Source: Daphnia carinata (Eukaryota). Taken from it: 64,000 nucleotides of DNA. The stretch covers positions 11,718,001 through 11,782,000 of the forward strand of contig NC_081333.1 in assembly GCF_022539665.2 (NCBI RefSeq), in the 5' to 3' direction. Shown piece by piece: positions 12,474-49,800 of this stretch. The notes beneath the pieces were generated by a model that had not been told where the DNA came from, did no database searches, and saw only the letters and a list, made by a program, of their open reading frames with translations. The translations under genes were made by a program, and so were the position numbers. How positions within the stretch are numbered: the stretch's first letter is position 1; each line of letters begins with the position of its first letter.

Positions 12474-12559
12474 AGATCCGGTTATCACAGAACACTAAAG
12501 CACGCGACACGAAATAGGAGATGAATTTTGACGATTTAATGAAAACAAGTTTTGAAGAG

Positions 12560-12605
12560 GGAGATAGCAGACGAATATTGCATCTCTAGCGTCATGGCAA
12601 CCGCG
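12560..12605 (-). promoter_or_regulatory. Putative housekeeping promoter motifs (GCAGACGA, TGGCAAC) upstream of the MTLN-ASRGL1 unit
   Basis: The same motifs occur just upstream of EXOSC7 (~49680), between ADCK5 and the TMEM70-like gene (~54455-54490) and before CINP (~23117). Confidence 0.5.
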
Positions 12606-21602: not shown

Positions 21603-22129
21603 TAGGGCTCGGCCCCGATCGTCTTTGATCGGGGCAAACCGCGGTTTTTCATTTAAAAATCGTCAAACCGTCGGTTCGGTTTGGTCATTTTTTACTGCGG
21701 TTCGGTTTTCGGTTTGCAGCTGGGCAAAACCGGTTTGAACCGCCATTAAAATTTTTTTTTAAACTTAGCTGAAATTCCAAATCAAGTAATTATCACTAAT
21801 TGTTGTGAGCGTAATGGTGATCGGCAACTTGTTGTAAATCAAATTTCCGATCAGACTTGTAGACATCGCGATCGAAAATTGGTCGATCCTTCCGCCATCT
21901 AGCGACAAAATCTGTTACTGATGTTATTGTCCTATGCAAACCGCAAATCCGCGGTGCAAACCGTAAAACCGCGGTGCAAACAGAAAACCGCGATACAAAC
22001 CGTCAAACCGCGGTTCAATCGGTTTGAAAAAAAAAAACGGCAAACCGAACCGCACCGGTTTGTCCTTTAAAAAAAAAAACCGCGCGGGTCGGCCAAAATC
22101 GTGCCCGATCGTCGCGGGGCCGAGCCCTA
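21603..22129. mobile_element. hAT-type MITE
   Basis: TIR TAGGGCTCGGCCCCG, AAACCG subterminal repeats, and 8-bp TSD TATCCAAT/TATCCAAA (7 of 8 match). Confidence 0.85.
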
Positions 22130-22272: not shown

Positions 22273-22714
22273 CAGACCTGCCGTAATCGCGATTGAAAAT
22301 TAATCGCGATTGCGATTTCGATTAAAATTTTAATCGGCGATCAAATTATTTTAAAATAATCGAAATCGGCGATTAAAGTGGAAAAAAATTAATTTTTAAT
22401 CGCGATTATTTTTCGATTATTTAGCGACATCTATGAACGGTAGATGAGACTATATGAAAGTCTACTCATAGCTTTGTCATTTTTGTAGCAGACGCTTTTT
22501 TTAAAATTTTCACTTGTTTCAATTTTTTCAATTTAAACAATGGCAAGTTATTTTCTTACTGCTAGATGGCGGTCAAAAATAATCGGAAAAACAATCGCTA
22601 AGAAATTTAATCGCCGATCAAATTTTTTCAACAGACGAATGATCGCCGATTATTTTTTTGCGATTATCGACGGCTACTGATAATCGCTCAAGAAATAATC
22701 GGACGGCAAGTCTG
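22273..22714. mobile_element. hAT-type MITE
   Basis: TIR CAGACC/TTGCCG, AATCG subterminal repeats, and a perfect 8-bp TSD CTTATGGC (22265-22272 and 22715-22722). Confidence 0.9.
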
Positions 22715-23249
22715 CTTATGGCAATCCGTTTTACCCAATAAAAATAAAAAAAATATTGGCCTTTTTTCTGTTTTACTGCTATCGCCATCTACTGGTCACA
22801 TTTCTAGTTAATTGTCTACATACACTAACCGAAAAAATTTTTAAGCCCGACTAAATAAGCCCAACTAAATAAGCCCGACTTTTCTCGGTCGGGCTTAATT
22901 TTTTTTTCTGAAAAAACTGACATTCATCGGAATTGGTTGAATATCACAGGGTATACTCAAAATTGAATACTGATTCCGGGAAAATTGCTTTTTTAAAAAT
23001 TAATTTAATCATTTTTGAAATACACCGAATGTTTGACTCAATGTTAGCGCGCCAGTACGCTACAGCGCTAGCGCGATGCAGCAGAAATCTCAAGTGCAAT
23101 GCAATCATAATAAAGTTGGCAACGCCATCGGTGTCAATCTGAGGTGCTCTAGGTATTGTCTGCTAGTGTTTAAAATTTTCAGTGAGTACGAGGTGTCAAT
23201 TGTGAATGCATGGCGTTTGTATGTTACAGCATAAATCAAATATCTTGAA

Positions 23250-24163
23250 ATGGACACATCTTTCACTCGTAAGTTGAAGAACACGATGGCAATTGATGGG
23301 TTAAATTTATGTTTCGCCACTTATTGGTTTAATTTGCTGAGCTGCTCACAGTTTCATTAATATGGTTTCTCCTGGCAATATGCAATGCTTTTTCGTAGTG
23401 AGCAACAGCCCTTCACCTGTAAAAAAATCGGGAAACTCTCAGCGAGCATTTGAACTAGCTGGGGAGCTATATAGCCAGATCCAACAATGGTATCTCTTAA
23501 TCACTACAGGAAGAAATATAATCAATAACATATTGCAGCTGAAAACAAAATTATGGTAAATTTTCAATTAAATAATTGCTAGAATGTGTTTTTAAGTTCA
23601 TAAGTACTACACCATCAACCAAACAGGGAAAATCCAGGTAATGCTGCTGATTTGTCGGAACTACAATTCCAGTGTGATCAACTTGGATCAGTTGTTTCTG
23701 AACTGGTCAGGTCTAAAAACATTAGACACAGTTACAAAGTTACTAATTTGAGACTACTTAGGAGGTGCTGCCTAAACAAATGGAAAAAATACAAGACCAG
23801 TACAAAGCATTGGAAAAATTGGGTGAACTTCAGAAAAAAATTGGATCAAACATCACATGTGATTCCACACCATTAATGTTTCTTACTTGGCCAAACTCCA
23901 AATTTGGTAATAGGGATTTGTAACTCATCTTGGTGATGAACGAGCTGTTAATTTTTTATCCTTTAGTTGTAGTTGTCACTTCCATTAAAGATGCTTTTAA
24001 TAAGGAGTTGCAATTGAAAAAATGCATTGCTGAAAATGTGGCACATTGTCAGCAGAAACAAATGCTTGATTTACATAAAATTGCCTGGGTCCATCAGGTT
24101 TATGTAACTTATACTACTAAGCTCCAGTTAGAAGCCCTCTTGGTAGAAACTGGTCAACGTTGA
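23250..24163 (+). CDS. CINP: CDK2-interacting protein, copy 1, 5 exons
   Basis: Spliced product includes PLMFLTWPNSKF…NKELQLKKCIAENVAH…WVHQVYV…LEALLVETGQR, matching the recalled CINP C-terminus. Confidence 0.85.
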
Positions 24164-24388
24164 AGACATTTATTGGCAATTGAAGGTATGGAAATTACAT
24201 AACTGATTTTGAAAAGAGTTTACTTTTATTATTTTTTTCTCTTTATTGGAGAATTTTATTTCCCAGATGAGAACTTTTTAAAGATCGGCATGTTTTATAC
24301 GTTAAATACCATAGAACACCGATTTTTAAAAAGTGATTTGAAAAATGTCTTCAAATGCAGAAAATGCTATTTAATTTAAAACGACTTG

Positions 24389-26544
24389 CTAGAGATCGCA
24401 TCCGAGGCGCTCTATCTCTTCTGCGAAGAATTCCATGTCTTTCGTATTGACACCCGAGCTTTGTAGAACTAGTCGGAAGAAGTTTGGCAAATTTCTCAGC
24501 GGTTGGTAGGTGATCATCATGCTGCCCTTTTTGATCATACGTTCTTTGATCTTTGGAGCGATCTAAATCGAATGCGGTTTTACGTAAAAAAGAAATTCTC
24601 CTTTAAATTGTAAATCGAAGTAAGAGCTATTGTACTCGGTGTAGCTTTTCATGATAATCTTCGTCATGCTGAGAATTTCGAAGGCTTGGCGGAATATACC
24701 AAAAGCATACGTTCACGAATGATGGCTCCTCTAGTACTAGTTTGAAACCTTCGCGATCCCGAATAAATGAAGTGAAATAGGCTGCATTTTCAAAGAGTGT
24801 ATCCACATGTCTTTCCAAGCCTAAACTTCCCTGCGATAAGTTGAGATGAAAGGGAAGAGCAATGGCGTTAAGATACTTGCTCGCTAGTTTTAATTGGTTA
24901 GCAACAATTCCTCCTAAGTTTATTCTGTACAATAATTTGAGCAGTGTTTTTTTTTGTGAAAATTTACCTTCGCTTGCCACATCAGCCAAAATTTGAGGAC
25001 GTCTGCTCGTCGTCCGCATTGCAGATATTTGTCTCCGACGTCCCACTTGGGATCATAAAACTTATCTTTTTGAAACAAATAAGACGCTGAAGCGGAATTG
25101 GCCTCCAGGAGAAGGTTTAGATGTCGTGTCAAAAAAGTGGAACACTGCTGAGGTACCCCAAGCAATTTGTGGGGGTTCCACGTTACGGAATCGGCTCTGG
25201 TTAGTAAGATGAAACAAGTTAAGTTGCTTCTTTGATTATTCTGACATTTTTACCGCTGAATTCCATTTAGGATATGACGATGCTTTGTGGACATAAGAGC
25301 TCCGCCTCCCCATGCTGCGTCTACATGCATCCATAGACCAAATTCTTGACATATGTCAGCGATCCCGTCAAGAGGATCTGTTGAGCCTAAGACGGTGGTT
25401 CCTGCGGTTATATACAATGCCGATAATTAAGATAAGTAAGATTTTGATACTGGTAAATTATATTGACCGGCTGTGGCCGACACCATAAATGGTCTGGCAC
25501 CCTCCTTGAGAGCTCTTTGTATTTCTTCTCGAAGATGTGCGAGATTCATTCGACCATCATTATCCACATCTACTAGGTAAAGATTGGATGTGCCTATTCC
25601 AAGAAGGAAACAAGCTTTCTTGATTGAATAATGGGCATCTTTGGACGTCAAAACCACTAGGCGACGTGATGCAAAAGTTCCTTTTTCCTGAAATTTCAAT
25701 AAAAGCTGAAAAATCAGTTTCCTACCATTGAATGATGCAACACAACCGTGTTTTCTAGAAATTGCAACCTCATAAGTAAACGAAATATTTATAGTGGTTG
25801 AACTTGATTTAGCTTTTGTAAGACACTTAACAAATTTTTAGGAAACATTGGTTGAAATCGAATCCTTGGGTTTACTTTCAAATCCGGCATAGCGTGATGT
25901 CGAGCACATTGAATCCCGTATATATTAGCCATTGAACCGCCTGGGCAAAAAACTCCATCGCCACTGCCACCTGGGAATCCTACGTAACGTCGCATTTCGC
26001 AAAGAAGTTTATGCTCCAGGAGCGTAAAAACAGGAGCAACTTCGTATGTATAAACACTGGGATTCAAAGAATCTGTTACCCACTGGGCCACAAGTCCGTA
26101 TGGATCCAAACTAGTTTAAGGAAAAAAATAATCAAAGGTAAGTTATATAATTGGTATAGATTTCGGTGTGGCGTTATCAGTAGAATAATACGTTTTTCTT
26201 TACCTTGAAAATAGTTGATTGATGAAATGTGGATGACCAGTCTTTACGCTGTAACGTACAACGTCCTTTATAAGTTTGATTAGATTGTCGTCCGATTCAG
26301 GATTTTTTGGCAGCTCTTCTCCCAGTAAAGCCATCAAAGATTCTGGCTCCATCCATTCGATGACTAAACTATCATTTGACGTTCCCTGGAACACAGCTTC
26401 TTTCAACAGAACATCAATAACCTGTCGGATGAATTGTTCGTGTTGGTCTTTGGAAGGTTTTGTTTGAAAGCGATCCATTAAAGTTGGTGTTTCAGAGTTC
26501 AGTTTACAGTGCGATATAACGGTGTTAGTGTTGTCTTTTTGCAT
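24389..26544 (-). CDS. Group II PLP-dependent decarboxylase (CSAD/GADL1/aspartate 1-decarboxylase-like), copy 1, intact
   Basis: [57 protein letters not shown] (PLP Lys), [24 protein letters not shown]. Confidence 0.9.
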
Positions 26545-27650
26545 TGTGGAACAAGTCGTGTACGCGTAACACGGTTGAAAGCTACCGACAAGCAGTGAAA
26601 AACTGAAAGATCAATTGTGGTCAGCTGCTTATATACTCCGGACACTAAAATGGCTACAACGTACGTTCGATCTCACTGATCGCCTGTGAATTGGACTCAG
26701 AGGGAAACTGAAACGACTTCACCAACCTTATTCCCTACATGGCAGGACATATTCCAAACGAAGGATTTCCGTCGTGTTTTTACGAAGGAAGACAGCAATT
26801 GCAGTTTGATTTTCTACTTTCATTTCGATGCGAGCATTTGGTTTACCATCGATCGCATCCAACCGGTTGAAGCTAGTTAAGTTTTTTTTTTTTTTCATGT
26901 AATTGGCATTCAATTTCCTCCGGTGTGTATCGTATTGGGTTTTCCTCCCAAACAAAATTGCCAAAACTTCTGTATTTACCATGGCGTATTCGACCATGGT
27001 TCTCTAGGGCACCGAAAGTGCATAGATTCATGCGAAGTTGTTGAAGACGTCAACAAATTAATGTAACTTTAATTTTGAATTGCGCTTTAACGTAACCTTA
27101 GAACAATAAATTGGTCTGCCGCTTTGACTAAGGAATTTGTAAGCGAGTTTTAAACAAAAGAAAGATCTTGCTGTTTGGCGAACAGTAAGTTTTTTATTTA
27201 CTCCAATTCAATGTACTTCGACGACATTACAATATCATAACAAGTGCAAAAAGGTGTCCCTTAAGCCACAAGAAATGTTAGCGGTTAAATTGTATGAATC
27301 ATAACTCAATGAATGAGCATCAGCATGCGATACTGAAAGATGATGTATCATCTCCCAAATGAATTGAATTCTGGATTAATAGTATAAAATGTATAAAGTA
27401 GTAACATAAAATGAACAAAAAAAAATTAAGTTGAATTAAACCCACCATGAGTACTACTATCGTAACCAAGTGGTCGATGGTATACTATATCATCTCAGCT
27501 AGACAGAATCCATAGAGGAAATTCATTATATTTAAGAAACAGCTGGTTTGGCGAGAAACCTATATATTTGTATTATTATATTAAGCAAAATTTGAACTTC
27601 AGTCAAGAATGTAAAAACGCAACAACACTTTGTTTGCTTTTATTTTCAAA

Positions 27651-29410
27651 ACGGCTAGTTTGAAGAGAAAACCAGTAGCTGAATCAGAATCAGCGTTTTA
27701 TGGTCATTATTCTCTGTGATTTTCATCGAATTCCAAGAGCTTTCGTTTTTGGCCGATTTTGACAAAAGTGAGAAGGCTATATAGCCTTCCCACTTTTTCA
27801 TTTTTGGCTAAAATCTAGATTTCGTAAAAAATACGTCATTTCGATTGAAAATTATACAAGGATCACGAAAATTGACGTTATTTTTTCGTGGGACTGATAC
27901 TTTTAGATTAATTTGGCTTTTAAGTGGTTGCGGGGCTTGAAAAATAAGCCCGACAAAAAAAGCCGGGCTTAAAATTTCTATAGATTTTCCTGTAAAAAAA
28001 ATAATAACGGCTGATTTAAGGAGAAAAACACTCACATAATCGAACTCAGCATTCAATTTTGGCTATTCCATGGGATTTCTTATCGAATTCCAAGAGATTT
28101 CGTATTTTGCCGATTTTGACAAAAGAGAGAAGGCTATATAGCCTTCCCACTTTTTCATTTTTCGCTAAAATCTAGATTTTGTTAAAAATACGGTAATTTC
28201 GATTGGAAATTATACAAGGATCACGAAAATCGACGTTATTTTCTCGTGGGACTGATAGTTTTAGAGTAATTTGACATTTAATTGGTTGCGGGGCTTGAAA
28301 AATAAGCCCGACAAAAAAAGCCGGGCTTAAAATTTCTATAGATTTTCTTGTAAAAAAATAATAGTGGCTAGTTTAAGGAGAAAAACACTCACATAACCGA
28401 ACTCAGCACTCAATTTTGGCTATTCCATGGGATTTTTTATCGAATTCCAACAGATTTCGTTTTTTGCCGATTTTGACAAAAGTGAGAAGGCGTTGCCTTC
28501 CCACTTTTTCATTTTTGGCCAAATTTCAAATTTCGATTTTAATATATGATATCGATGCAAAATTGAATGCTTATTATGAAAATGAAGTTTATTTTTCAAT
28601 TTGCGTTATAGTTTTTGAATTAAACTTAAAAAACAAAAATTCGGGCTTATTTTTCTCGGGCTTAAATAGTCGGGCTTAAAATTTCTATAGATTTTCCTAT
28701 TAAAAATAATAACGGCTAGTTTAAGGAGAAAAACACTTACATAATCGAATTCAGCGTTCAATTTTGACTACTCGATATGATTTTTATCGAATTCCAAGAG
28801 ATTTCGTTTTTGGCCGATTTTGACAAAAGTGAGGAGGCTATATCCTTCCCACTTTTTCATTTTTGGCTAAAATCTAGATTTCGTTAAATATACGTCATTT
28901 TGATTGGAAATTATACAAGGATCACGAAAATCGACGTTATTTTCTCGTGGGACTGATAGTTTCAGAGTTATTCGACTTTTAAGTGGTTGCGGGGCTCGAA
29001 AAATAAGCCCGACAAAAAAAGCCGGGCTTAAAATTTCTATAGATTTTCCTGTAAAAAAATAATAACGGCTAGTTTAAGGAGAAAAACCCTTACATAATCG
29101 AATTCACCGTTCAATTTTGACTATTCGATATGATTTTATCGAATTCCAACAGATTTCGTTTTTTGCCGATTTTGACAAAAGTGAGAAGGCAATAGCCTTC
29201 CCACTTTTTCATTTTTGGCCAAATTTCAAATTTCGATTTATATATGATTTCGATGCAAAATTGAATGCTTATTATGAACATGAAGTTTATTTTTCAATTC
29301 GCATTATAGTTTTTGAATTAAACTTAAAAAACAAAAATTCGGGCTTATTTTTCTCGGGCTTAAATAGTCGGGCTTAAAATTTCTATAGATTTTCCTATTT
29401 AAAAAATAAT
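27651..29410. repeat. Tandem satellite, ~350-bp units in two subtypes (A A B A B)
   Basis: Repeated GGCTAGTTTAAGGAGAAAAACAC…GCCTTCCCACTTTTTC…CGGGCTTAAAATTTCTATAG, with units starting near 27651, 28006, 28364, 28711 and 29064. Confidence 0.9.
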
Positions 29411-30075
29411 ATCATTAAACCTGGATAACTACATACGAATAAGATTCAAAATTTAACAAGGAACACGAAAATGAACTTTGTTTTTTCGTAGATTTTATGA
29501 GTAATTTAATATAAAAGTGCGCTCGATAGAAATGTTAAACCCGACAAAATAAGCCCGAATTTTCTATTTAAATATCCATTTTACCTTATGTCTAACATAT
29601 ATATATACATTTGTCAATTATACACTTTGTCTGTTGTAGGTACAGTACGAAAATTGCGTATACATCTAGTGGTTAGACTTTCCGTTTTACCAATCGATTC
29701 CAAGTTTTAACCCCTACTTAAATAACCTAAGCAAACAAAAAGATGCCCCACTCTACGCTTGACGTTATCAATTCTATTTTACTAACTTGTTTGTTAAACT
29801 TATTTGTTTACCAAACTTATCACCAATGACGCCAACGCTTAAATTGTAGTAGATTTCCCGCCTGCTATTTCCCCTATGTGATTCATGAAAGGGGGCCTGA
29901 ACCCTACCAAGATTTTTCGTCGTACTTTTGCTGGTAGGGTTCAGGCAGTTGAACGAGATGGAGTTGGTATACCAGGGCCCTTGCAAAACACTGCACTATA
30001 TCGGCGAGTCGGCTGTGACGAGTTTGTCGGAGCTTTCTTTAACTATTTTAAGGATTTAGCGGATCGTCAAAACAC

Positions 30076-32101
30076 TAGTGTTGGCGATTATCTAAGTTCT
30101 GCTAGATACAATTATCTACGCCCACTTTTAGATAACGATACGATTATCGATAAAATATCTAATAACCCCCATCTACCGGCCAAAAATAGCACTGCACAAA
30201 TGATAGGGGTTAGTTTGTCGGGCTTGTATCGATAATTATAAACAATAACCTTATGCGACAACCATCGTCATCAAAAACAAATGTCATAGCGCTGTGGTTA
30301 CAGACAGCGCTTGTGGCACAATAATTCCGAGTTCAACACTAGGTACGGATGTATGTTTTTATCGATTTTTTGGTAGCAAATAATGTGTTTTATGCTTTGA
30401 AAAGCATGCATACGACTGAAATATTAGATTTCCGTTGTCGATTTGTATCGATACTATTCAACAACAATGCATTTGGATTATGATTCGAATTGCAAGTAGT
30501 GTGCTGGCGCAGAGCTATAAGGCGAGGTTCATGACACAAAGTCCTTGGGTTCAAGCCCAATCGACGATTTTTCCACAATTTTTGGTTTTGTGATAAAAAT
30601 TGCATAAATGTTTTTACAAGAAGGTTTTTTAGAAGCGGTAGCATTTGTCCTTTTTTAAAATATTTATAATATTATGTTACGAAACTTAAAGCACTGATAA
30701 ATTTTATGACAACACCCCCTAATACTGAAAAATTTCACTGCGCAGCTTCGTAAAATCGAGCAGACGACGATAAAATTAGATACTCGTCTGCAATTTGTAT
30801 CGATACTATCTCACACCAATACCACCTTACTGGTTCCATATTTTACAATAACGTCATGGCTAAGTGGAAGATGCTGTGGCTTAGGACATAAAGGTACGGA
30901 GTTCAACCCTCAACGGAGACATAGTTTATCACTAATTTTCATTATTGCAAAAATATCTTGTAGATGGTTTTTAACGGGAATTCACAAATATTTTGCATTA
31001 CAGTCCTATATAAATATTGTGCCGTTTTTAATAGTTAATTTGCTGTGTAAGAATACTATTAATTGCGGTGGCAACCCTGATATCAATAGTAAATAAATCT
31101 TCAATTTAAATCGTTGCAGACGACAGCAATGTTAGATTTTCGTCTGCAATTTGTATCGATACTTGTTAACACGACTACTATGTATTGCTTTGCAATCGCT
31201 TAGCATGAGGGAGTAGCGCTGTGGATAAGTACTGCGATTGGGATTCGGAATTCTCGAGTTCAAATCTGTTTTATGGCAATTTTTTTTACAATCTGCTAGA
31301 CATTATATTTTAAACGTATCTAAGTAACAAAAATTTAGGATGATCGCTCTCTGTTAACTGAGGCGTGTACGATACTAATAAAATAACATTTGTAATTTAT
31401 AAATGTAACAGATTTTCATAGCAAAATAGTATTCTGTTTAGCATCGTTGATAAAGCAGATGACGGTAAATAACAGTTGCTTCTGAAATTTGTATCGATAC
31501 TCGGCACCAAACGTTGGACTTATTGCTTGACACACACAAATTGTGGAGAGTTAGCATTGTGGATCAATTCCGCGCTCGGAACACAAAGTACAGAAGTTCG
31601 AATCCGTCTGCGAGACATTTTTTAAAATTTGAAATACATATTTTTATATGCTGACGATAAATACATTTGCACAATGTTAAATTATAATTTTCTCTACATT
31701 TTATATTCATGTAATCAAAACTTCAACAAAAATCTATTGTATTTCATAAGGCAACACTGATATGTATAACTAAAATCATCTATTAAGACTTGTAAAGTAA
31801 AGCAGACGATAAAAATATTGTATTTTATGATATTTGTATCGATACTCGCCAACGAAAACCATACTTGTGCCATGTCGTTTTTTTCTTACTGGTTTAGTGG
31901 TGTGGGTCAAGTCGGCGCTCGTAACACGAAGCGTCGGAGTTCAAATCTAGGCAGAGATGAAAGTTTTTAAATTATTGTAGTTTTTTTTCATTTGCACTAC
32001 ACGCCATCTATTGTTAAATGTGAGATCTATTTGGAGTGTATCGATACAGCGATTATCTAAAAAAGTCGACTATCTAAAAAGTATCTAAAAATATCGATAT
32101 A
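30076..32101 (+). mobile_element. Non-coding hAT-like element (TIR TAGTGTTGGCGAYTATCTA) carrying six tRNA-like cassettes; right TIR displaced to 38640-38675
   Basis: Starts exactly where block Y diverges from its copy. It has TATCTA subterminal repeats at both ends and is interrupted at TA (32100-32101) by a pogo end. The matching TIR TAGATAGTCGCCAACACTA follows the pogo element at 38640. Confidence 0.75.
30224..31970 (+). ncRNA. Array of six diverged Pol III type-2 (A/B-box) cassettes, each preceded by TATCGATA
   Basis: TATCGATA at 30227, 30446, 30798, 31154, 31492, 31837. A boxes at 30287, 30505, 30857, 31214, 31552, 31895. GTTC at 30331, 30549, 30901, 31258, 31596, 31939. Confidence 0.7.
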
Positions 32102-32246
32102 CAGTGCGGCTCCACTTATCGGACCACCCTGTGCAGTGGTCCGATAAGCGGATAATCCGAAAAGCGGCTCGACAGCGGTTAGCGCCCTCTCGTCGCGCTC
32201 ATTCGTAAAATTTTCTAATACTCTGCTCGTATTGACTGGTTCTGTA
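32102..32246 (-). mobile_element. pogo/Tigger 3'-end fragment
   Basis: TA|CAGTGCGGCTCCACTTATCGGACC. Near-exact reverse complement of 38495-38639, fused to the ASRGL1 3' flank. Confidence 0.9.
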
Positions 32247-32590
32247 ATCGACCGCCGTTGGTCAATTCCTTTTCATTCGAAGGACGCCTGGTTATCAGTT
32301 TCCATTCTAAAACCACAGCCAACAAGGTCATTAAAAATATAATATTTAGGCCTCAAATAAACACTGCCATATGGAGAAGAAAAATCTATGAACGCACGCC
32401 ACGATTGGCACATGACTATAGATGGTGATTTCAAGGCCGCAGATAACTGAAACCAGTTTCAACCTCTATTAATTTCCGCACGTTACAGCCGCTTGGAAAA
32501 AATGATATTGGGCCCAGCCCGCAATTGCACCATACGTCTAAAAATTGCTGTTACTTTGCACTAAATAGTTGAAGGCAGATGATGACGATT

Positions 32591-33788
32591 TCAGGCCATC
32601 TTTTCAATGTTGCATTCATTTGGATCGAGGCCCCAGAAAAAGACGTCCGATTTGGCAATTGCCCACGCCATTCGCCCAGTGGTGAACTGAAAAGCAGGTT
32701 CACCGGAAGCGCTGATGCAAATGGCGCCGCCTGCACCTTTTATTCTTGAATTCATTAACTGTAGGGATTGCTCAACAGCTTCTTGAGCTTTCATGCCTAC
32801 AATTCCATATGGGATGTAAAGGTGTTGTGTTGCCAGATGACGGATAAATATGAAAATTTACCGCTTTCCATCAAGCAGATTATATGTTTGGCTAAACATA
32901 TTTTTATGATAGATTCTCCATGGCCAGTACAGGACACGCCACCAATTTCGTCAATTGCATAAGTTCCACTTCCTGGAATAATCAGAAGCTAAATCAGATG
33001 TTTCATTTGTGGTTGAACATAGCATTACCTATTAGAGGACTATCTCTAACCCGGCCCACTCTTTTACCGGTGATACCTCCTGTGGATGTCGCGGCTGCAA
33101 TTCGACCGTTGGCGTCCATGGCAACAGCTCCGACAGTGTCATGTCCAAGTGGCAGTGCATTGATTCTAAAATAATAAGCTTTCAATCACCTGATGCACAA
33201 ATGAATGAATAGTACTTACTGATTGTTAAATAAAGAATCTACAGCACTTTTATATTTTTCAAAAGTTTGCCATTCATCAAGACACGCTTCAGTGATCAAA
33301 CTAGATGGGTCTACGCTGGGTATATTGCACTCATTGGCAAACATATTTGCTCCTTCACCCACAAGCAAGCAATGGTCAGTTTGTTCCATAACCATCCGAG
33401 CCAAACAAATTGGGTTGCTAATGTTTGCCACTGCTGCAACAGCTCCTAAATTAGAATATCTTGAGTGTGAGATGACAAATTGCTGTCAGCATAGTCTAAA
33501 TATTTGAAAATTACCAGCTTTCAGAGAAGTGCCATCCATAATAGAAGCATCCATTTCAATCAAACCAGCAGCATTTAAGCATGAACCTTTCCCTGCATCA
33601 AATACTGGTTCATCTTCAAGAATAACAACTGCCGCTTCAACAGCATCAAGAGCTGAACCACCATTTTTCAAAATTTCATAAGCTTTTTTAGCCGCTAACT
33701 TGACCCCATTTCTACTTGCATTACTAATATTTTCAGGGATTGCCCAGGCCCCACCATGAATTACTACAACAGGCTCTACTTTATTCAT
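32591..33788 (-). CDS. ASRGL1: ASRGL1 copy B, with GRVGD changed to GRVRD (possibly inactive)
   Basis: All five exons are present. The ORF track shows GRVRDSP. Confidence 0.8.
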
Positions 33789-33835
33789 AACAAAAAATTA
33801 AATTTTATATGGAACTCAATAATATGTCTTTAAAT

Positions 33836-34000
33836 TTAATTAGATAACAATTCGATTTCTTGCTGGGTTTCCAGTAACTTGTTGGTTAGTATCTCCCGCC
33901 TTCGTTTCAACCCCTCGATCTCCCAATCTTTCAACTTGTACCCAATAAAAACGCCACATAAGAATGTTAAAAGATAGGCTGCTTTCGTTGCGTTCCCCAT
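33836..34000 (-). CDS. MTLN: Mitoregulin-like microprotein copy B (54 aa)
   Basis: MGNATKAAYLLTFLCGVFIGYKLKDWEIEGLKRRREILTNKLLETQQEIELLSN*. Confidence 0.6.
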   Translation of the reverse strand: MGNATKAAYLLTFLCGVFIGYKLKDWEIEGLKRRREILTNKLLETQQEIELLSN

Positions 34001-34120
34001 AGATCCGGTTATCACAGAACACTAAAGCACGCGACACGAAACAGGAGATGAATTTTGACGATTTAATGAAAACAAGTTTTGAAGTAGTGTTGGCGACTAT
34101 CTAGTGTTGGCGACTATCTA

Positions 34121-34385: not shown

Positions 34386-34552
34386 AGAATAAGGAAGGCC
34401 GCAGATAACTGAAACCAGTTTCAACCTCTATTAATTTCCGCACGTTACAGCCGCTTGGAAAAAATGATATTGGGCCCAGCCCGCAATTGCACCATACGTC
34501 TAAAAATTGCTGTTACTTTGCACTAAATAGTTGAAGGCAGATGATGACGATT

Positions 34553-35750
34553 TTAGGCCATCTTTTCAGTGTTGTACTCTTTTGGATCGAGACCCCACGA
34601 TAAGACATCCGCTTTGGCAATTGCCCACGCCATTCGTTCGGTAGTGAAGTGAAAGGCGGCTTCACCGGATGCACTGATACAAATTACCCCACCAGCTCCT
34701 TTTACTTTTGAATTCATTAACTGTAGGGATTGCTCAACAGCTTCTTGAGCTTTCATGCCTACAATTCCATATGGGATGTAAAGGTGTTGTGTTGCCAGAT
34801 GACGGATAAATATGAAAATTTACCTCTTTCCATCAAGCAGATTATATGTTTGGCTAAACATATTTTTATGATAGATTCTCCATGGCCAGTACAGGACACG
34901 CCACCAATTTCGTCAATTGCATAAGTTCCACTTCCTAGAATAATCAGAAGCTAAATCAGATGTTTCATTTATGGTTGAACATAGCATTACCTATTAGAGG
35001 ACTATCTCCAACCCGGCCCACTCTTTTACCGGTGATACCTCCTGTGGATGTCGCGGCTGCAATTCGACCGTTGGCGTCCATGGCAACAGCTCCGACAGTG
35101 TCATGTCCAAGTGGCAGTGCATTGATTCTAAAATAATAAGCTTTCAATCACCTGATGCACAAATGAATGAATAGTACTTACTGATTGTTAAATAAAGAAT
35201 CTACAGCACTTTTATATTTTTCAAAAGTTTGCCATTCATCAAGACACGCTTCAGTGATCAAACTAGATGGGTCTACGCTGGGTATATTGCACTCATTGGC
35301 AAACATATTTGCTCCTTCACCCACAAGCAAGCAATGGTCAGTTTGTTCCATAACCATCCGAGCCAAACAAATTGGGTTGCTAATGTTTGCCACTGCTGCA
35401 ACAGCTCCTAAATTAGAATATCTTGAGTGTGAGATGACAAATTGCTGTCAGCATAGTCTAAATATTTGAAAATTACCAGCTTTCAGAGAAGTGCCATCCA
35501 TAATAGAAGCATCCATTTCAATCAAACCAGCAGCATTTAAGCATGAACCTTTCCCTGCATCAAATACTGGTTCATCTTCAAGAATAACAACTGCCGCTTC
35601 AACAGCATCAAGAGCTGAACCACCATTTTTCAAAATTTCATAAGCTTTTTTAGCCGCTAACTTGACCCCATTTCTACTTGCATTACTAATATTTTCAGGG
35701 ATTGCCCAGGCCCCACCATGAATTACTACAACAGGCTCTACTTTATTCAT
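34553..35750 (-). CDS. ASRGL1: ASRGL1 copy C, apparently intact
   Basis: All exons and motifs are present ([20 protein letters not shown]). The last exon is more diverged from copy A. Confidence 0.85.
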
Positions 35751-35791
35751 AACAAAAAATTAAATTTTATATGGAACTCAATAATATGTCT

Positions 35792-35974
35792 TTAAAGTAA
35801 ATTAGATAACAATTCGATTTCTTGCTGGGTTTCCAGTAACTCGTTGGCTAGTATCTCCCGTTTCAACTCTCTATTTCGTTTGAACCTCTCGAACTCCCAA
35901 TCTTTCAACTTGTACCCAATAAAAGCGCCACATAAGAATGTTAAAAGATAGGCTGCTTTCGTTGCGTTCCCCAT
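35792..35974 (-). CDS. MTLN: Mitoregulin-like microprotein copy C (60 aa, in-frame insertion)
   Basis: MGNATKAAYLLTFLCGAFIGYKLKDWEFERFKRNRELKREILANELLETQQEIELLSNLL*. Confidence 0.6.
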   Translation of the reverse strand: MGNATKAAYLLTFLCGAFIGYKLKDWEFERFKRNRELKREILANELLETQQEIELLSNLL

Positions 35975-36094
35975 AGATCCGGTTATCACAGAACACTAAA
36001 GCACGCGACACGAAACAGGAGATGAATTTTGACGATTTAATGAAAACAAGTTTTGAAGTAGTGTTGGCGACTATCTAGTGTTGGCGACTATCTA

Positions 36095-38639
36095 CAGTGC
36101 GGCTCCACTTATCGGACCACCCACTTATCGCACCAAACCGGTTATCGGACCGAGGTCAGACTCGCACACTGAGTTGGCGATTGAGCGCCACTAGTGTGGA
36201 TTTGATGAAGCATTTTTTAGAACCGGGGGCGCGCGAAGAGTGGTCTGTATGAAGATGTCCCTTCATTTTCAGGGGGTTCAAATTTCAGCGGAATGCTGTA
36301 GTTATCAGCTTGTTAGGATGAGTCCGATGCCAGCTTGTTATGATGAGTCAGGTACGCCAGCCTGCTATGATGAGTCAAAAGTTTCCCTCAGTTTCTTCTT
36401 AGCTTTTATTCAGGAAAGATCCATTTTAGTTTAGCTGCAATATGGAAAAAACCGTGCGCACGCCGGTGTTAAGTACCAATTCAAACTCGCGGAATGTGGC
36501 AAATTCAAATGGAAGAAAAAATAGGGATGTTTTGACGCTAAAAGAAAAACTTGAAGTGGTAGAGCAGCTAGGAAAAGGATTGAGTGAGCGTGCTGTGGCG
36601 AAAATGTTCAGTGTTTCCCGCTCGCAGATTCATCGTATTAGTGCAAGGCGAACTGAAGTGAAAAGTTTCAGTGAAAAATTTTTTTTAATTTGAGTGCCAA
36701 GCATTTGGCTAACACTGCTCATCATCCCGAGTTAGATGATGCAGTTTTTCAATGGTTTAGGGAGATGCGCAATCCAACAAAGCGTCGCAAACCATTGCCC
36801 GTATCCCGCAGTATTATTTTAGCTCGCGCTTTACATGAAGCAAACCGACTAGGATTGGATACGTTTAACGCTTCAAATGGCTGGTTCCGTAACTGGAAAA
36901 AACGCTTCGACATTGGAAATAGCGTGCGCATTGTAGGTGAAGCAGGCGATGTGGATATTGCACAAGTAGAGCAGGAAATCCAGGTCTTACGTGACAAACT
37001 AGGTAAGTATAAACCTGAGAATATATTTAATTGTGACGAAACAGCTAGCTACTATCGTGCGCTACCGTTTCGTAGTTATATTTCCCCAGATGAAAATCGC
37101 CGTATTATAAGAGGAACCAAAGAGCTGAAAGCCAAAGATAGAATAACTGTGATGCTTTGTGTGAATGCCACCGGATGCTGTAAAATCCCACCATTTGTGA
37201 TAGGTTCCTCAAAATCACCTCACTGTTTTAGAGACAGTCTTCCGCCGATTCCATATAAAGGTCAGGCTAATGCTTGGATGGACAGGGAACTTTTCAGATT
37301 TTGGTTTTTAGATGTATTTTTACCCGTTGTGAGACAGTGGACTACGGAGCCAGTAGCTATTGTAATGGACAATTGTGCTGGTCATGACAAAACTTGTGTC
37401 GATCCATTAGACCAAGTTCAGTTTTTTTTCCTTCCTCCAAATGTCACTTCGGTCTACCAGCCTCTTGATCAGGGTATTATAGCTTCTCTAAAGTCACTCT
37501 ACAGGAAGGAGTTAATAATCAAATTGGTTGAGGCTTATGACAATCATACAGCTTTGCAGGAAGCAGCAAGTTTAGCAAAAAGAGGTAGGAAGGGTTTGCG
37601 ATATGGCTGCTCTGCAACTGTATTGGATGCTTGCCAATTAATCAAATCTTGCTGGGATTTGGTTTCAAACACCACACTATTCAATTGCTGGAGGCATTCG
37701 AAAATACTACCACATGAGCAGTTCACCAGGTGAAGCGAAACCAGACCTCTAGATGTTGTTGGTAACACTTCCGACTTCTTATGCGACTTGTTACTCTCCT
37801 TGCAAATTACATCTGAAAAAAAAATACTGAGCTAGCCGATATAATAGAGAAGGCGAAGACAGATGATTGTGCTATTCAAATTCAACGCTGGCTTGATTTT
37901 GAAACAGATCCGGCAGTTATTGCGGCAGAAGATTACGAACTTTCAAATGAAATTTCACAGCAATGTGATTCGGCATCCTCTTCGAGCCAGTCAAACGAAA
38001 TTTCACTGATGGACGTTTGCGAGAGCGTTGCTACTCGTTCTAGTCCTAACAATCTAGCTCATGAAGCACTCTTGAAAGAGAAGCTGCTTAAATATGCATG
38101 CGCTGCCGTCGATGCTAGGATATCCGATCCTACATTATATGACCTAGTTTCCAAAATTAAAGAACATTTGTCGTAAGTTAATGCGTTTGTTAAATATTAA
38201 TTTATTATTTGTAAGCGTTGATAAGCTTAATTTTTCTTTAAACAATTTTACGTTATTCTGTTACGTTACTTCGCTTATGTTTCAAGTGTGTTCAAACTAA
38301 ATGTTTTAAATGTAGATTTTTTTTCTCGTTTTATACAATCAAACGTAGCGTACATTTCAAAGGTATTTTTACTTGATCTGTAATTTGTTCGGTACCTAGA
38401 ATTTTGCGACACAGCTAATAAACTTAGATTATATACTATTACTCGTTCTTGTAAGTTAATTCAATTTATTATAAAGCTTATCTAGTTAAATGAGTACAGA
38501 ACCAGTCAATACGAGCAGAGTATTAGAAAATTTTACGAATGAGCGCGACGAGATGGCGCTGACCGCTGTCGAGCCGCTTTTCGGACCATCCGCTTATCGG
38601 ACCACTGCACAGGGTGGTCCGATAAGTGGAGCCGCACTG
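36095..38639 (+). mobile_element. Full-length pogo/Tigger-type (Tc1/mariner superfamily) DNA transposon
   Basis: TIR CAGTGCGGCTCCACTTATCGGACCACCC, TA on both sides, and an internal transposase. Confidence 0.95.
36442..38176 (+). pseudogene. pogo/CENP-B-like transposase (psq-type HTH, CENP-B HTH, DDE_1), interrupted
   Basis: LTLKEKLEVV…VSRSQI, FNASNGWFRNWKKR, NCDET, VMDN, QPLDQGII. The frame breaks at a T-run near 36680 and at the stop at 37733. An acidic tail continues in another frame to 38176. Confidence 0.85.
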
Positions 38640-38759
38640 TAGATAGTCGCCAACACTAGATAGTCGCCAACACTACTTCAAAACTTGTTTTCATTAAATC
38701 GTCAAAATTCATCTCCTGTTTCGTGTCGCGTGCTTTAGTGTTCTGTGATAACCGGATCT

Positions 38760-38924
38760 ATGGGGAACGCAACGAAAGCAGCCTATCTTTTAACATTCTT
38801 ATGTGGCGTTTTTATTGGGTACAAGTTGAAAGATTGGGAGATCGAGGGGTTGAAACGAAGGCGGGAGATACTAACCAACAAGTTACTGGAAACCCAGCAA
38901 GAAATCGAATTGTTATCTAATTAA
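38760..38924 (+). CDS. MTLN: Mitoregulin-like microprotein copy D (54 aa, same as copy B)
   Basis: Reverse complement of 33836-34000. Confidence 0.6.
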   Translation: MGNATKAAYLLTFLCGVFIGYKLKDWEIEGLKRRREILTNKLLETQQEIELLSN

Positions 38925-38971
38925 ATTTAAAGACATATTATTGAGTTCCATATAAAATTTAATTTTTTGTT

Positions 38972-39660
38972 ATGAATAAAGTAGAGCCTGTTGTAGTAAT
39001 TCATGGTGGGGCCTGGGCAATCCCTGAAAATATTAGTAATGCAAGTAGAAATGGGGTCAAGTTAGCGGCTAAAAAAGCTTATGAAATTTTGAAAAATGGT
39101 GGTTCAGCTCTTGATGCTGTTGAAGAGGCAGTTGTTATTCTTGAAGATGAAGCGGTATTTGATGCAGGGAAAGGTTCATGCTTAAATGCTGCTGGTTTGA
39201 TTGAAATGGATGCTTCTATTATGGATGGCACTTCTCTGAAAGCTGGTAATTTTCAAATATTTAGACTATGCTGACAGCAATTTGTCATCTCACACTCAAG
39301 ATATTCTAATTTAGGATGGAGTACTGGCCATGGAGAATCTATCATAAAAATATGTTTAGCCAAACATATAATCTGCTTGATGGAAAGCGGTAAATTTTCA
39401 TATTTATCCGTCATCTGGCAACACAACACCTTTACATCCCATATGGAATTGTAGGCATGAAAGCTCAAGAAGCTGTTGAGCAATCCCTACAGTTAATGAA
39501 TTCAAGAATAAAAGGTGCAGGCGGCGCCATTTGCATCAGCGCTTCCGGTGAACCTGCTTTTCAGTTCACCACTGGGCGAATGGCGTGGGCAATTGCCAAA
39601 GCGGATGTCTTATCGTGGGGTCTCGATCCAAAAGAGTACAACACTGAAAAGATGGCCTGA
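38972..39660 (+). pseudogene. ASRGL1: ASRGL1 copy D with internal deletion of exon 2 to mid exon 4
   Basis: After intron 1 the sequence jumps to TGHGES (~39316-39325). The catalytic HDTVG and GRVGD segments are missing. Confidence 0.9.
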
Positions 39661-40134
39661 AATCGTCATCATCTGCCTTCAACTATTTAGTGCAAAGTAA
39701 CAGCAATTTTTAGACGTATGGTGCAATTGCGGGCTGGGCCCAATATCATTTTTTCCAAGCGGCTGTAACGTGCGGAAATTAATAGAGGTTGAAACTGGTT
39801 TCAGTTATCTGCGGCCTTGAAATCACCATCTATAGTCATGTGCCAATCGTGGCGTGCGTTCATAGATTTTTCTTCTCCATATGGCAGTGTTTATTTGAGG
39901 CCTAAATATTATATTTTTAATGACCTTGTTGGCTGTGGTTTTAGATTGGAAACTGATAACCAGGCGTCCTTCGAATGAAAAGGAATTGACCAACGGCGGT
40001 CGATTTTTAACTGTATTATTCATCAAGGTTAAAGGCATTCGTAACCGAGGAAACGGTTGTAACCGGGATTTCGCAGTTGAAAATAGGATTAGAACGTAAC
40101 AAACAGTTGAAAGTACAGGTTGTGTCTATTCGCT

Positions 40135-42584: not shown

Positions 42585-43551
42585 ATCAAGCGATCCACCT
42601 CTTCTGCCAAAGGCAACTTCATAGAGTGCTTTTTTACATGCATGTCAAGGTTTCTTTCAAATCCATGCGATTTTAATAAATTTCACCGAGTTCCTTGAAA
42701 TGAATTTGTTCCTTTCTCTACTTCGTCGGACGAAATTTTTGTGGTTGTACATGAATGACGATTTAAAAACGCATGATTTTGTTCAGCCAACTTATGTGCT
42801 TTTTCAAATATATATGTATGTAATTTTATTAATTTAGTTTTTAGTTTTAGCAGAGTGCTAGAGTCACAGAATCCTGGATGCCCCAGATGACATTCTCTTG
42901 CTCCAAAAAAAAAGTATCGATAAGGCCAATGGTGATGAAATTCATGTGTCTAGGGCGGAGCTTTGTCGACAAAATTCACAAATTCTTCCAAAAATAATAT
43001 CGTGAACTCAGTCATGAACTATGGCAATCCGTTTTACCCAATAAAAATTAAAAAATATTGGCATTTTTTCTGTTTACTAGTATCGCCATCTACCGGTCAC
43101 ATTTCTAGTTAATTCTTTACATACACTGACCGAAAAAAATTTTAAGCCCGACTAAATAAGCCCAACTAAATAAGCCCGACTTTTCTCGGTCGGGCTTAAA
43201 TTTTTTTTCTGAAAAAACTGACATTCATCGGAATTGGTTGAATATTACAGGGTATACTCAAAATTGAATACTGAATCCGGGGACATTGCTTTTTTTAAAA
43301 TTAAGTTAATCATTTTTGAAATACACCGAATATTTGGCGCAATTTTAGCGCGCCAGTACGCTACAGCGCTAGCGCGATGCAGCAGAAATCTCAAGTGCAA
43401 TGCAATCATAATAAAGTTGGCAACGCCATTGGTGTCAATCTGAGTTGTTCTAGGTATTGTCTGCTAGCGTTTAAAATTTTCAGTGAGAACTTGGTGTCAA
43501 TGGTGAATACATTGGCGTTTGTATGTCACAGAATAAATCAAATATCTTGAA

Positions 43552-44459
43552 ATGGACTCATCTTTCACACGTAAGTTGAAGAACACGATGACAATTGATG
43601 GGTTAAATTTATGTTTCGCCACGTATTGGTTTAATTTGCTGAGCTGCACACAGTTTCATTAATATGGTTTCTCCTGGCAATATGCCATGCTTTTTTCGTA
43701 GTGAGCAACAGCCCTTCACCTGTAAAGAAATCGGGAAACTCTCAGCGAGCATTTGAACTAGCTGGGGAGCTATATAGCCAGATCCAACAGTGGTATCTCT
43801 TAATCACTACAGGAAGAAATATAATCAATAACATATTGCAGCTGAAAACAAAATTGTGGTAAATTTTCAACTAAATAATTGCGAGAGTGAGTTTTTTAAG
43901 TTCATAAGTACTACACCATCAACCAAACAGGGAAAATCCAGGTAATGCTGCTGATTTGTTGGAACTACAATTCCAGTGTGATCAACTTGGATCAGTTGTT
44001 TCCGAACTGGTAATGTCTAAAAACATTAGACACAGTTACAAAGTTACTAATTTGAGACTACTCTGCCTAAACAAATGGAAAAAATACAAGACCAGTACAC
44101 AGCATTGGAAAAATTGGGTGAACTTCAGAAAAAAATTGGATCAAACATCACACGTGATTCCACACCATTAATGTTTCTTACTTGGCCAAACTCCAAATTT
44201 GGTAAAAGAGATTGATAATTCATCTTGGTGATGAACGACCTGTTAATTTTTTAACCCTTAAGTTGTAGTTGTCACTGCCATTAAAGATGCTTTTGATAAG
44301 GAGTTGCAATTGAAAAAATGCATTGCTGAAAATGTGGCACATTGTCAGCAAAAACAAATGCTTGATTTACACAAAATTGCCTGGGTCCATCAAGTTTATG
44401 TAACTTCTACTACTAAGCTCCAGTTAGAAGCCCTCTTGGTAGAAACTGGTCAACGTTGA
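43552..44459 (+). CDS. CINP: CINP copy 2, exon-4 acceptor deleted (possible pseudogene)
   Basis: A 9-nt deletion (TAGGAGGTG) at ~44062 removes the canonical TAG acceptor. Confidence 0.7.
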
Positions 44460-44686
44460 AGACATTTATTGGCAATTGAAGGTATGGAAATTACATAACT
44501 GATTTTGAAAAGAGTTTACTTTTATTATTTTTTCTCTTTATTGGAGAAGTTTATTTCCCAGATGAGAACTTCTGTTTAAAGATCGGCATGTTTTATACGT
44601 TAAATACCATAGAACACCGATTTTTAAACATTGATTTGAAAAATGTCTTCAAATGCAGAAAGTGCTATTTAATTTAAAACGACTTG

Positions 44687-49010: not shown

Positions 49011-49800
49011 TCATTAAACCTGGATAACTACATACGAATAAGATTCAAAATTTAACAAGGAACACGAAAATGAACTTTGTTTTTTCGTAGATTTTATGAG
49101 TAATTTAATATAAAAGTGCGCTCGATAGAAATGTTAAACCCGACAAAATAAGCCCGAATTTTCTATTTAAATATCCATTTTACCTTATGTCTAACATATA
49201 TATATACATTTGTCAATTATACACTTTGTCTGTTGTAGGTACAGTACGAAAATTGCGTATACATCTAGTGGTTAGACTTTCCGTTTTACCAATCGATTCC
49301 AAGTTTTAACCCCTACTTAAATAACCTAAGCAAACAAAAAGATGCCCCACTCTACGCTTGACGTTATCAATTCTATTTTACTAACTTGTTTGTTAAACTT
49401 ATTTGTTTACCAAACTTATCACCAATGACGCCAACGCTTAAATTGTAGTAGATTTCCCGCCTGCTATTTCCCCTATGTGATTCATGAAAGGGGGCCTGAA
49501 CCCTACCAAGATTTTCCGTCGTACTTTTACTGGTAGGGTTCAGGCAGTTGAACGAGATGGAGTTGGTATACCAGGGCCCTTGCAAAACACTGCACCATAT
49601 CGGCGAGTCGGCTGTGACGAGTTTGTCGGAGCTTTCTTTAACTATTTTAAGGATTTAGCGGATCGTCAAAACACGGAAAGCAGACGAACGCAGCAATAAA
49701 GTTAATTCCGTTTTCACGTGGTAATTTGAAGTGACACAAACATGGGCATTTTAATATAATATTTTCTCATCAATTTACTTTTTTTCTAGGTCCTGGCATA

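What the first reader, a model, noticed from the sequence alone, without database searches (positions are those of the whole stretch)
30224..32050. Transposon-borne array of six diverged DRE / A-box / B-box cassettes with fixed spacing
Seen: inside a non-coding hAT-like element, six units (first spacing 219 bp, then 338-356 bp) share little sequence except a rigid grammar. TTGTATCGATA is followed 58-60 nt later by a Pol III A box (e.g. TGGCTAAGTGG, TAGCGCTGTGG). Exactly 44 nt after each A-box start comes a B-box core GTTCRA, then a T-tract about 20-30 nt further on (weak in unit 3). Several units also have an upstream GCAGACGAC…TCGTCTGC inverted pair (30760, 31116) and a GGCAAC motif (31070, 31750), the motifs found at housekeeping promoters in this window. 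A CTCF-like site closes the array (~32001). Acceptor and anticodon stems do not pair, so these are not tRNAs. Known: A/B boxes bind TFIIIC and can act as chromatin barriers, and TATCGATA is the DREF/BEAF-32 site in insects. Inference: spacing is conserved while spacers diverge, which suggests selection. The array may be a portable insulator/anti-silencing module or a battery of distinct ~70-80 nt Pol III RNAs carried by a DNA transposon. I know of no description of such a unit.
Basis: partly seen in the sequence, partly recalled or inferred. Interest (0 to 1): 0.9.

Follow-up and report, generated by a model that had tools for sequence, protein, structure and literature searches.

The report
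Transposon carrying six Pol III cassettes
A gene-less, cut-and-paste-type jumping element in a water-flea genome carries six diverged copies of a tRNA-style promoter that keep their protein-binding motifs and spacing but not the tRNA fold, likely acting as a portable open-chromatin module that would help the element survive in the housekeeping promoters where both of its mapped ends landed.

Summary
In detail: six DRE-like / A-box / B-box / T-tract units, 6 matches in the window against 0 in 100 shuffles. They lie in a ~2.06-kb non-coding hAT-like element of a Daphnia-like genome, split near its right end by a pogo transposon. The units align without gaps but share only 30-57% outside the boxes. 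They show no cloverleaf or shared fold and no TSDs, so they are neither tRNAs nor SINEs.

New here:
(1) In diverged copies from one sequencing sample, motifs vary least (2/110), the rest of the cassette most (35/358) and spacers in between (24/592). Cassette neighbours also differ between copies.
(2) The 'DRE' is fused to a decayed copy of the element's own terminal repeat, so it may bind the transposase BED finger rather than host DREF.
(3) Both empty target sites lie 5-9 nt before a host GCAGACGA promoter motif, which the units also carry.

Best reading (0.45): a selected cis-acting TFIIIC/Pol III open-chromatin or barrier array whose RNA sequence is dispensable. Expression, binding and insulation are untested. 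Ten literature searches found no such unit.

The parts
30076..30094 (+). Left terminal inverted repeat of the hAT-like element (TAGTGTTGGCGATTATCTA)
   Evidence: The paralogous segment 28366-30075 = 47957-49674 ends exactly here; an X1 contig starts matching at 30076 after 93 unrelated letters (table 8)
30095..30223 (+). Left subterminal region rich in TATCTA/TATCGA
   Evidence: 47 per kb over 30076-30223 vs 1.0-1.3 per kb in the rest of the window
30224..30360 (+). Unit 1: DRE/pseudo-TIR 30224-30247, A box 30287-30297, B box 30331-30339, T5 30356-30360
30408..30572 (+). Unit 2: GCATACGA 30408 (GCAGACGA in the X1 copy), DRE 30443, A box 30505, B box 30549, T5 30568
30760..30939 (+). Unit 3: GCAGACGA inverted pair 30760/30784, DRE 30795, A box 30857, B box 30901, weak T4 30936
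31070..31287 (+). Unit 4: GGCAAC 31070, GCAGACGA pair 31116/31140, DRE 31151, A box 31214, B box 31258, T4 31269, long T run from 31280
   Evidence: two X1 contigs differ from each other at 17 of 159 sites here
31455..31623 (+). Unit 5: GCAGATGA 31455, DRE 31489, A box 31552, B box 31596, T6 31618
31750..31968 (+). Unit 6: GGCAAC 31750, GCAGACGA 31802, DRE/pseudo-TIR 31834-31857 (13 of 17 identical to the right TIR), A box 31895, B box 31939, T5 31964
32002..32009 (-). AGATGGCG core, CTCF- or YY1-like (labels recalled); also found in other TEs of the window
32030..32101 (+). Right subterminal region (TATCTA/TATCGA, 97 per kb), ending at the TA where a pogo element inserted
32102..32249 (-). 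End of the inserted pogo/Tigger-type element (copy with both ends at 36095-38639; DDE_1 + HTH_Tnp_Tc5 ORF, frameshifted at its 5' end)
34085..34120 (-). Displaced right end of the hAT-like element (17-nt TIR doubled), joined to a pogo end; further copies at 36059-36094 and 38640-38675
49667..49687 (+). Empty target site of the left end: junction 49674/49675, 5 nt before GCAGACGA, ~120 nt upstream of an RNase PH-domain (EXOSC7-like, label recalled) gene
12550..12574 (+). Empty target site of the right end: junction 12557/12558, 9 nt before GCAGACGA, ~300 nt upstream of an asparaginase gene

Best explanation
The array is six tRNA-like promoter cassettes with fixed spacing inside a non-coding hAT-like transposon, and it likely works in cis: TFIIIC and Pol III would bind the A/B boxes and a BED-finger protein (the transposase or host DREF) would bind the upstream TATCGATA, keeping the element and the promoter it interrupts open. 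Shown: the grammar, the loss of tRNA structure, motif retention against body divergence, the TIR-like extension of each DRE, and both empty sites beside a host promoter motif. Inferred: origin by tandem duplication of a block made of a decayed element end about 40 nt upstream of a tRNA-like gene; later selection only on protein-binding sites and their geometry (a type-2-hybrid-like Pol III promoter); transcription of 60-90-nt RNAs whose sequence does not matter, which would explain the raised variation of the cassettes through transcription-associated mutagenesis; and a benefit to the element through resistance to silencing, access for transposase, or compensation for the housekeeping promoter it lands in.
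For: Grammar 6 vs 0 expected. Gapless alignment of 91 columns with only 30-57% identity outside the boxes; DRE 66 of 66 positions identical. No fold: cloverleaf 42.9% of 126 cells paired vs 42.2% shuffled; consensus fold -1.74 kcal/mol, column-shuffle P=0.08; best helices not above chance. Copies in sample X1: motif 2/110, other cassette positions 35/358, spacer 24/592 (p=0.004 and p=0.0007). Both motif changes are compatible with the consensus. Without the incompletely listed contig: 1/60, 23/216, 16/295 (p=0.035, 0.042). 0 of 8 indels fall between DRE and B box (P=0.023). Active tRNA loci have raised mutation in and around the gene (PMC6130373, abstract and passages). The 13 nt after each DRE match the right TIR at 45 of 78 positions, reached by 60 of 127,750 window 13-mers including the units and TIRs themselves; none of the six keeps the terminal CTA. 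hAT transposases bind their left end through BED domains (PMC10368747, abstract), and the BED finger is named after BEAF and DREF (PMC3606216, passages). Both empty sites are 5-9 nt before GCAGACGA, of which 5 exist outside the array and 4 lie upstream of genes. Multimeric tDNA insulators depend on B boxes (PMC11436800, passages); TFIIIC clusters with other architectural proteins in flies (PMC4226948, passages).
Against: No direct evidence of binding, transcription or insulation. All copy data come from one low-coverage sample as contigs; I assigned differences to contigs from their depth values, and 8 of 29 differences of one contig were not listed. If 3 of those 8 fall in motifs the motif test drops to p=0.12. 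Motifs vs spacers alone (1.8% vs 4.1%) is a small gap; motifs vs all other sites gives one-sided p=0.037. Indels in spacers sit partly in homopolymers, which inflates that contrast. The 44-nt distance equals ordinary tRNA geometry (43-45 in the tRNA- and SINE-like hits), and TFIIIC tolerates other spacings (recalled), so exact length fits an RNA-level ruler at least as well. Unit 1 folds well alone (z -2.7), and a weak shared hairpin joins A-box offsets 1-5 with 20-24. The targeting argument rests on 2 post hoc sites and a uniform null. DREF in Daphnia was not shown (one search found 0 papers).
Confidence: 0.45

Rival explanations
1. A battery of distinct functional Pol III RNAs (about 60-90 nt) that act in trans, for example as decoys for La or small-RNA silencing machinery; their sequences diversify under selection and the cassette set changes between copies.
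For: Complete promoter-terminator layout in 5 of 6 units. Exact length with no indel. Cassette bodies vary 2.4 times faster than spacers, which could be diversifying selection. Two X1 contigs carry different sequence upstream of a unit-4-type DRE block (tables 7, 8), so the repertoire exceeds the six seen here.
Against: No shared structure, no Rfam family, no complementarity to anything else in the window. The X1 changes that fall in candidate stems include no compensatory pair (read). Unit 3 has a weak terminator and unit 4 an early T4.
Confidence: 0.2
2. Captured cargo: a host cluster of tRNA or other Pol III genes with old hAT end remnants was picked up by the element. The motif conservation was shaped in host copies or before capture and does nothing for the transposon.
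For: Geometry and several invariant columns are tRNA-like (T8, G10, G15, G18, U33, G53-C56, A58, C61). Two earlier scan notes from other genomes describe hAT MITEs inserting into and moving tRNA-Pro arrays (unchecked). No genome was available to exclude host copies.
Against: Every unit begins with a decayed copy of this element's own TIR. Motifs are still spared among 3-10% diverged copies. Real tRNA bodies are conserved (PMC6130373), these are hypervariable.
Confidence: 0.2
3. A transposase-loading platform: the invariant TTGTATCGATA sites are internal, non-cleavable ends that gather BED domains of the autonomous partner and raise mobilisation; the Pol III boxes only keep those sites free of nucleosomes.
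For: TIR homology with loss of the terminal CTA in 6 of 6; TATCTA/TATCGA 47-97 per kb at the ends vs about 1 elsewhere; BED-domain gathering at the Hermes left end (PMC10368747, abstract).
Against: The fixed 61-63-nt DRE-to-A distance and the GCAGACGA site at -32 to -35 fit a promoter better than free-standing transposase sites. No autonomous partner was found.
Confidence: 0.1
4. Neutral relic: an old tandem duplication of a tRNA pseudogene or SINE head that is simply decaying.
For: Stems are lost and spacers barely align (z 0.4-2.1).
Against: DRE 66 of 66 identical, GTTCRA 6 of 6 and no indels while other positions are 43-70% different. No TSDs or tails, and shared upstream motifs that retroposition could not copy.
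Confidence: 0.05

Closest known systems
tDNA insulators/barriers (e.g. human ALOXE3 tDNA cluster; PMC11436800 passages) and TFIIIC ETC sites (PMC4226948 passages)
   Same: Multimerised A/B-box units with spacers; activity would depend on B boxes and TFIIIC
   Different: Here the units are no longer tRNAs, each has a fixed upstream DRE/pseudo-TIR and GCAGACGA site, and they ride in a DNA transposon
Type 2-hybrid Pol III promoters (7SL, vault RNA, BC200, nc886; PMC10498592 passages)
   Same: Internal boxes plus upstream elements, short unit, oligo-T end
   Different: Those RNAs are conserved and structured; these bodies are hypervariable with no shared fold, and the upstream element derives from a transposon end
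Cassandra/Ajax TRIMs and SINEs carrying Pol III promoters (PMC10946416 passages)
   Same: Non-autonomous TE keeps Pol III promoter boxes from a host gene; Cassandra can form tandem arrays
   Different: Those are retroelements that need an RNA and use 5S (type 1) or single tRNA heads; this is a TIR element that needs no transcript and holds six diverged cassettes
gypsy insulator (12 clustered Su(Hw) sites; PMC4226948 passage) and VANDAL/VANC tandem target arrays (PMC5735166 abstract)
   Same: A TE carries a tandem array of protein-binding sites tied to chromatin state
   Different: [quoted passage not shown]
hAT non-autonomous elements; Hermes BED-domain end binding (PMC10368747 abstract)
   Same: TAG-starting short TIR, subterminal repeats, no ORF
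   Different: Internal cargo of Pol III cassettes, each headed by a TIR relic; TSD not readable here

Membership tests
tRNA gene | Cloverleaf with paired acceptor, D, anticodon and T stems | tested here: not met
   42.9% of 126 cells paired vs 42.2% shuffled and 33-42% slid; ARAGORN 0 genes; no tRNA match in Rfam at E<=10
tRNA gene | A and B boxes at tRNA spacing | tested here: met
   44 nt in 6 of 6; 43-45 in tRNA- and SINE-like hits of the metagenome scan
tRNA-derived SINE | Tail and target-site duplication per copy; no shared upstream flank | tested here: not met
   Longest flanking direct repeats are 5-8 nt and AT-rich; T-tract follows the B box directly; upstream motifs are shared
Type 2-hybrid Pol III gene | Internal boxes, upstream element at fixed distance, oligo-T terminator | tested here: met
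   (terminator weak in unit 3, early T4 in unit 4)
Type 2-hybrid Pol III gene | Pol III-dependent transcript | not testable with these tools
   No RNA holder listed
hAT non-autonomous element | Short TIRs starting (T/C)A(A/G)NG (consensus recalled) with subterminal repeats | tested here: met
   TAGTG start at both ends; TATCTA/TATCGA 47-97 per kb at ends
hAT non-autonomous element | 8-bp target-site duplication | tested here: inconclusive
   Left and right ends adjoin different empty sites; two neighbouring MITEs do have 8-bp TSDs
hAT non-autonomous element | Autonomous partner with hAT transposase and the same TIR | not testable with these tools
   No genome held; none among window ORFs
Chromatin insulator/barrier | Enhancer-blocking or barrier activity dependent on B boxes | not testable with these tools
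   Needs a reporter assay
DREF/BEAF target | Binding of host DREF to TATCGATA | not testable with these tools
   Site present in 6 of 6 but overlaps a TIR relic; no paper on Daphnia DREF found
Structured ncRNA family | Shared fold with covariation | tested here: not met
   Covariation term -0.06; column-shuffle P=0.08 and helix P=0.2-0.6; only 6 sequences, so low power

The most novel reading that the evidence does not exclude
A DNA transposon family that targets housekeeping promoters and has evolved its own expandable, reshuffled array of hybrid Pol III promoters, built from its own terminal repeat plus a tRNA gene. It couples transposase or DREF binding to TFIIIC/Pol III to make a self-carried anti-silencing and promoter-compensation device: a kind of transposon cis-module not found in the papers searched, and a natural compact insulator.
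Probability: 0.3. Interest if true: 0.85.

Novelty: new variant of a known kind. Interest (0 to 1): 0.68.

Why it matters
A cut-and-paste transposon has no need for a Pol III transcript, so selection to keep six Pol III promoters while discarding the tRNA fold separates the chromatin role of tRNA-type promoters from their RNA product. That makes a long-standing question, whether occupancy, transcription or the RNA gives tDNA barrier activity, testable with natural variants. The fusion of a DRE with a TIR relic would also show how hAT end sequences and DREF-type promoter sites interconvert, and the promoter-adjacent insertions hint at how a TE can live in housekeeping promoters of a compact genome.

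Tried and rejected
No genome is held, so no genome-wide copy survey was possible. ARAGORN found 0 genes. Rfam at E<=10 gave one chance S15-leader match outside the array. The metagenome scan with the grammar gave 14 loci, each with one match and none similar to the window by blastn: 4 tRNA calls in 4 loci, the rest SINE-like or chance. Viral contigs gave 0 for the grammar and 2 unrelated TIR-only matches. Prokaryote genomes gave 2 single matches. These blanks do not show absence in Daphnia. Sequencing runs: no RNA holder listed; one DNA sample with a small share; run X2 laid nothing. Unit 6 and the right end were not covered by X1 contigs. Alternative folds (D-like stem 1-5/20-24, mini-hairpin 24-27/31-34) were not above column-shuffle chance. 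SINE origin rejected. The 128-codon stop-to-stop frame at 30710-31096 has no Pfam match. A tRNA-Pro ancestry (7-nt D loop, 5-nt variable loop, NGG at the anticodon position in 2 of 6 units) rests on recall and was not tested. Literature: 10 searches found no description of this unit; the library lacks most subscription papers. Five look-ups for four papers were not held (Raborn 2016, Ebersole 2011, Raab 2012, Kalendar 2008), so the Daphnia promoter-motif catalogue and the primary tDNA-barrier papers were not seen. The Daphnia TSS preprint (10.64898/2026.08.31.748272, passages) names none of DRE, GCAGACG or GGCAAC in its main text; its supplements were not seen. Scan look-ups by place, sequence and words found no note on this unit.

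Full report
Host and setting. A single-exon protein of the window (54627-55352) is 90% identical to a cluster that holds a UniRef Daphnia magna entry, so the window is from a Daphnia close to D. magna. No genome is held.

Observation. The six units are as described. The composite pattern matches 6 times in 64 kb, all in the array, against 0 in 100 shuffles. DRE-to-A-box distances are 63, 62, 62, 63, 63, 61, A-to-G53 is 44 in all six, and the periods are 219, 352, 356, 338, 345. T-runs follow at 19-25 nt in five units; unit 3 has only a T4 at 35, and unit 4 has an extra early T4. TATCGATA occurs 12 times in the window against 0.7 expected, 9 of them in this element; GCAGACGA 10 times against 1.0, 5 in the array; GGCAAC is only slightly enriched.

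The element. A segmental duplicate (28366-30075 = 47957-49674) stops exactly at the TIR at 30076, and its continuation at 49675 is the empty site. A contig from sample X1 also begins to match at 30076 after 93 unrelated letters. At 32100-32101 a pogo/Tigger-type element inserted at TA. The missing right end, a doubled 17-nt TIR, is found joined to pogo ends at 34085, 36059 and 38640, with its empty site at 12557/12558. The element would thus be about 2,060 bp with no transposase ORF. The TAG start and subterminal TATCTA/TATCGA repeats (47 and 97 per kb vs about 1) fit hAT. A TSD cannot be read because the ends adjoin different targets.

What the units are not. ARAGORN and Rfam see nothing. The cloverleaf pairs no better than controls. 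The consensus fold is -1.74 kcal/mol with no covariation and is reached by 8% of column shuffles, although unit 1 alone folds at z -2.7. There are no tails or TSDs, and the shared upstream motifs show DNA-level duplication, not retroposition.

Constraint between units. The six align over 91 columns with no gap, yet share 30-57% outside the boxes, and spacers barely align. The DRE is identical at 66 of 66 positions.

Constraint between copies. X1 (one sample, contigs only) holds diverged copies of units 1-5. Two contigs over unit 4 differ from each other at 17 of 159 sites, and two contigs carry other sequence upstream of a unit-4-type DRE block, so cassette neighbours vary between copies. I used four contigs, assigned listed differences by depth value, and dropped 31 nt at each contig end. 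Listed were 21 of 29, 15 of 22, 13 of 13 and 18 of 21 differences; a fifth contig (11 differences) and smaller pieces were not used. Variable sites: motifs 2 of 110, other cassette positions (DRE end to 3' arm) 35 of 358, spacers 24 of 592; p=0.004 and p=0.0007; the excess holds at AT and at GC sites. One motif change restores GCAGACGA; the other keeps a purine in the A box (consensus recalled). Without the least complete contig p=0.035 and 0.042; if 3 unlisted changes fell in motifs p=0.12. None of 8 indels lies between DRE and B box (P=0.023; two indels outside these contigs were left out). Spared motifs inside a hypervariable unit is what an active Pol III locus with a dispensable RNA would show, given the raised mutation at active tRNA loci (PMC6130373; abstract and passages). 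That step is inference, and diversifying selection on RNAs is not excluded.

The 'DRE' is also a TIR relic. In register with GATA, the 13 nt after each DRE match the right TIR at 7, 7, 7, 8, 7, 9 positions (45 of 78); 60 of 127,750 window 13-mers score as high, including the units and the TIR copies. None of the six keeps the terminal CTA. This comparison was made post hoc. hAT transposases bind their left end with BED domains (PMC10368747, abstract), the domain named after BEAF and DREF (PMC3606216, passages). So the binder may be the transposase, host DREF, or both.

Target sites. Both empty sites lie 5 and 9 nt before GCAGACGA, upstream of an RNase PH-domain gene and an asparaginase gene. 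Only 5 such motifs lie outside the array, 4 upstream of genes. A uniform null gives 8e-4 per site, but n is 2, the test is post hoc, and open promoters attract many TEs. The units carry the same motif 32-35 nt before the DRE.

Mechanism. Best (0.45): a cis-acting array of hybrid Pol III promoters that recruits TFIIIC/Pol III and a BED-finger protein, keeping the element and the interrupted promoter open. Precedent for the parts: B-box-dependent tDNA barriers (PMC11436800, passages), TFIIIC at architectural sites and the 12-site gypsy insulator (PMC4226948, passages), hybrid promoters (PMC10498592, passages). Rivals: functional RNA battery (0.2), captured host gene cluster (0.2; two unchecked scan notes from other genomes report hAT MITEs in tRNA-Pro arrays), transposase-loading platform (0.1), neutral relic (0.05). 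The exact 44-nt length is the observation the best reading explains least well.

Novelty. TEs with Pol III promoters are known as retroelements (Cassandra, SINEs; PMC10946416, passages, which also mentions DNA transposons harbouring rDNA-derived sequence), and TEs with binding-site arrays are known (gypsy; VANDAL, PMC5735166, abstract). Ten searches found no DNA transposon with an array of diverged, structure-less type-2 cassettes headed by TIR relics; subscription papers and Repbase were not searchable. I rate it a new variant of a known kind, interest 0.68, with a 0.3 chance of a new kind of transposon cis-module.

Noticed in passing
window 10719-12557, 32246-34084, 34395-36058, 38676-40005, 42856-39321: An asparaginase gene is present in at least four full or partial copies, most bounded by pogo ends and the hAT right end; the X1 contig over it has depth 335 vs about 8 for the array, suggesting TE-driven amplification.
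   Followed up: partly
window 21893, 22564, 22783, 32002, 38551, 43084: All 6 AGATGGCG cores in the window (1.0 expected) lie in TE-like sequence of several families, hinting that TEs here commonly carry a CTCF- or YY1-like site (labels recalled).
   Followed up: partly
window 21603-22129 and 22273-22714: Two further hAT-type MITEs with clear 8-bp TSDs (one with a single mismatch), nested close together.
   Followed up: yes
window 27650-29563 and 47954-49010: A separate ~357-bp tandem repeat (4.8 and 2.3 copies) just upstream of the element; its period is close to that of the array but it has no A/B boxes.
   Followed up: no
window 22717-30075 and 43020-49674: A 7-kb segmental duplication with a pyridoxal-dependent decarboxylase gene ends exactly at the hAT-like left TIR, consistent with alternative transposition.
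   Followed up: partly
window 36095-38639: pogo/Tigger-type element with both ends and a DDE_1 transposase ORF that is frameshifted near its 5' end, flanked on both sides by the hAT right end in inverted orientation.
   Followed up: partly
L009 3453-3579: A real tRNA-Gly gene in a marine metagenome contig has TGTATCGATA 64 nt before its A box, the same geometry as the array units; single case, may be chance.
   Followed up: no
window 1-788 and 63213-64000: The first and last 788 bases of the window are 99.9% identical: a very recent duplication or an assembly overlap.
   Followed up: no
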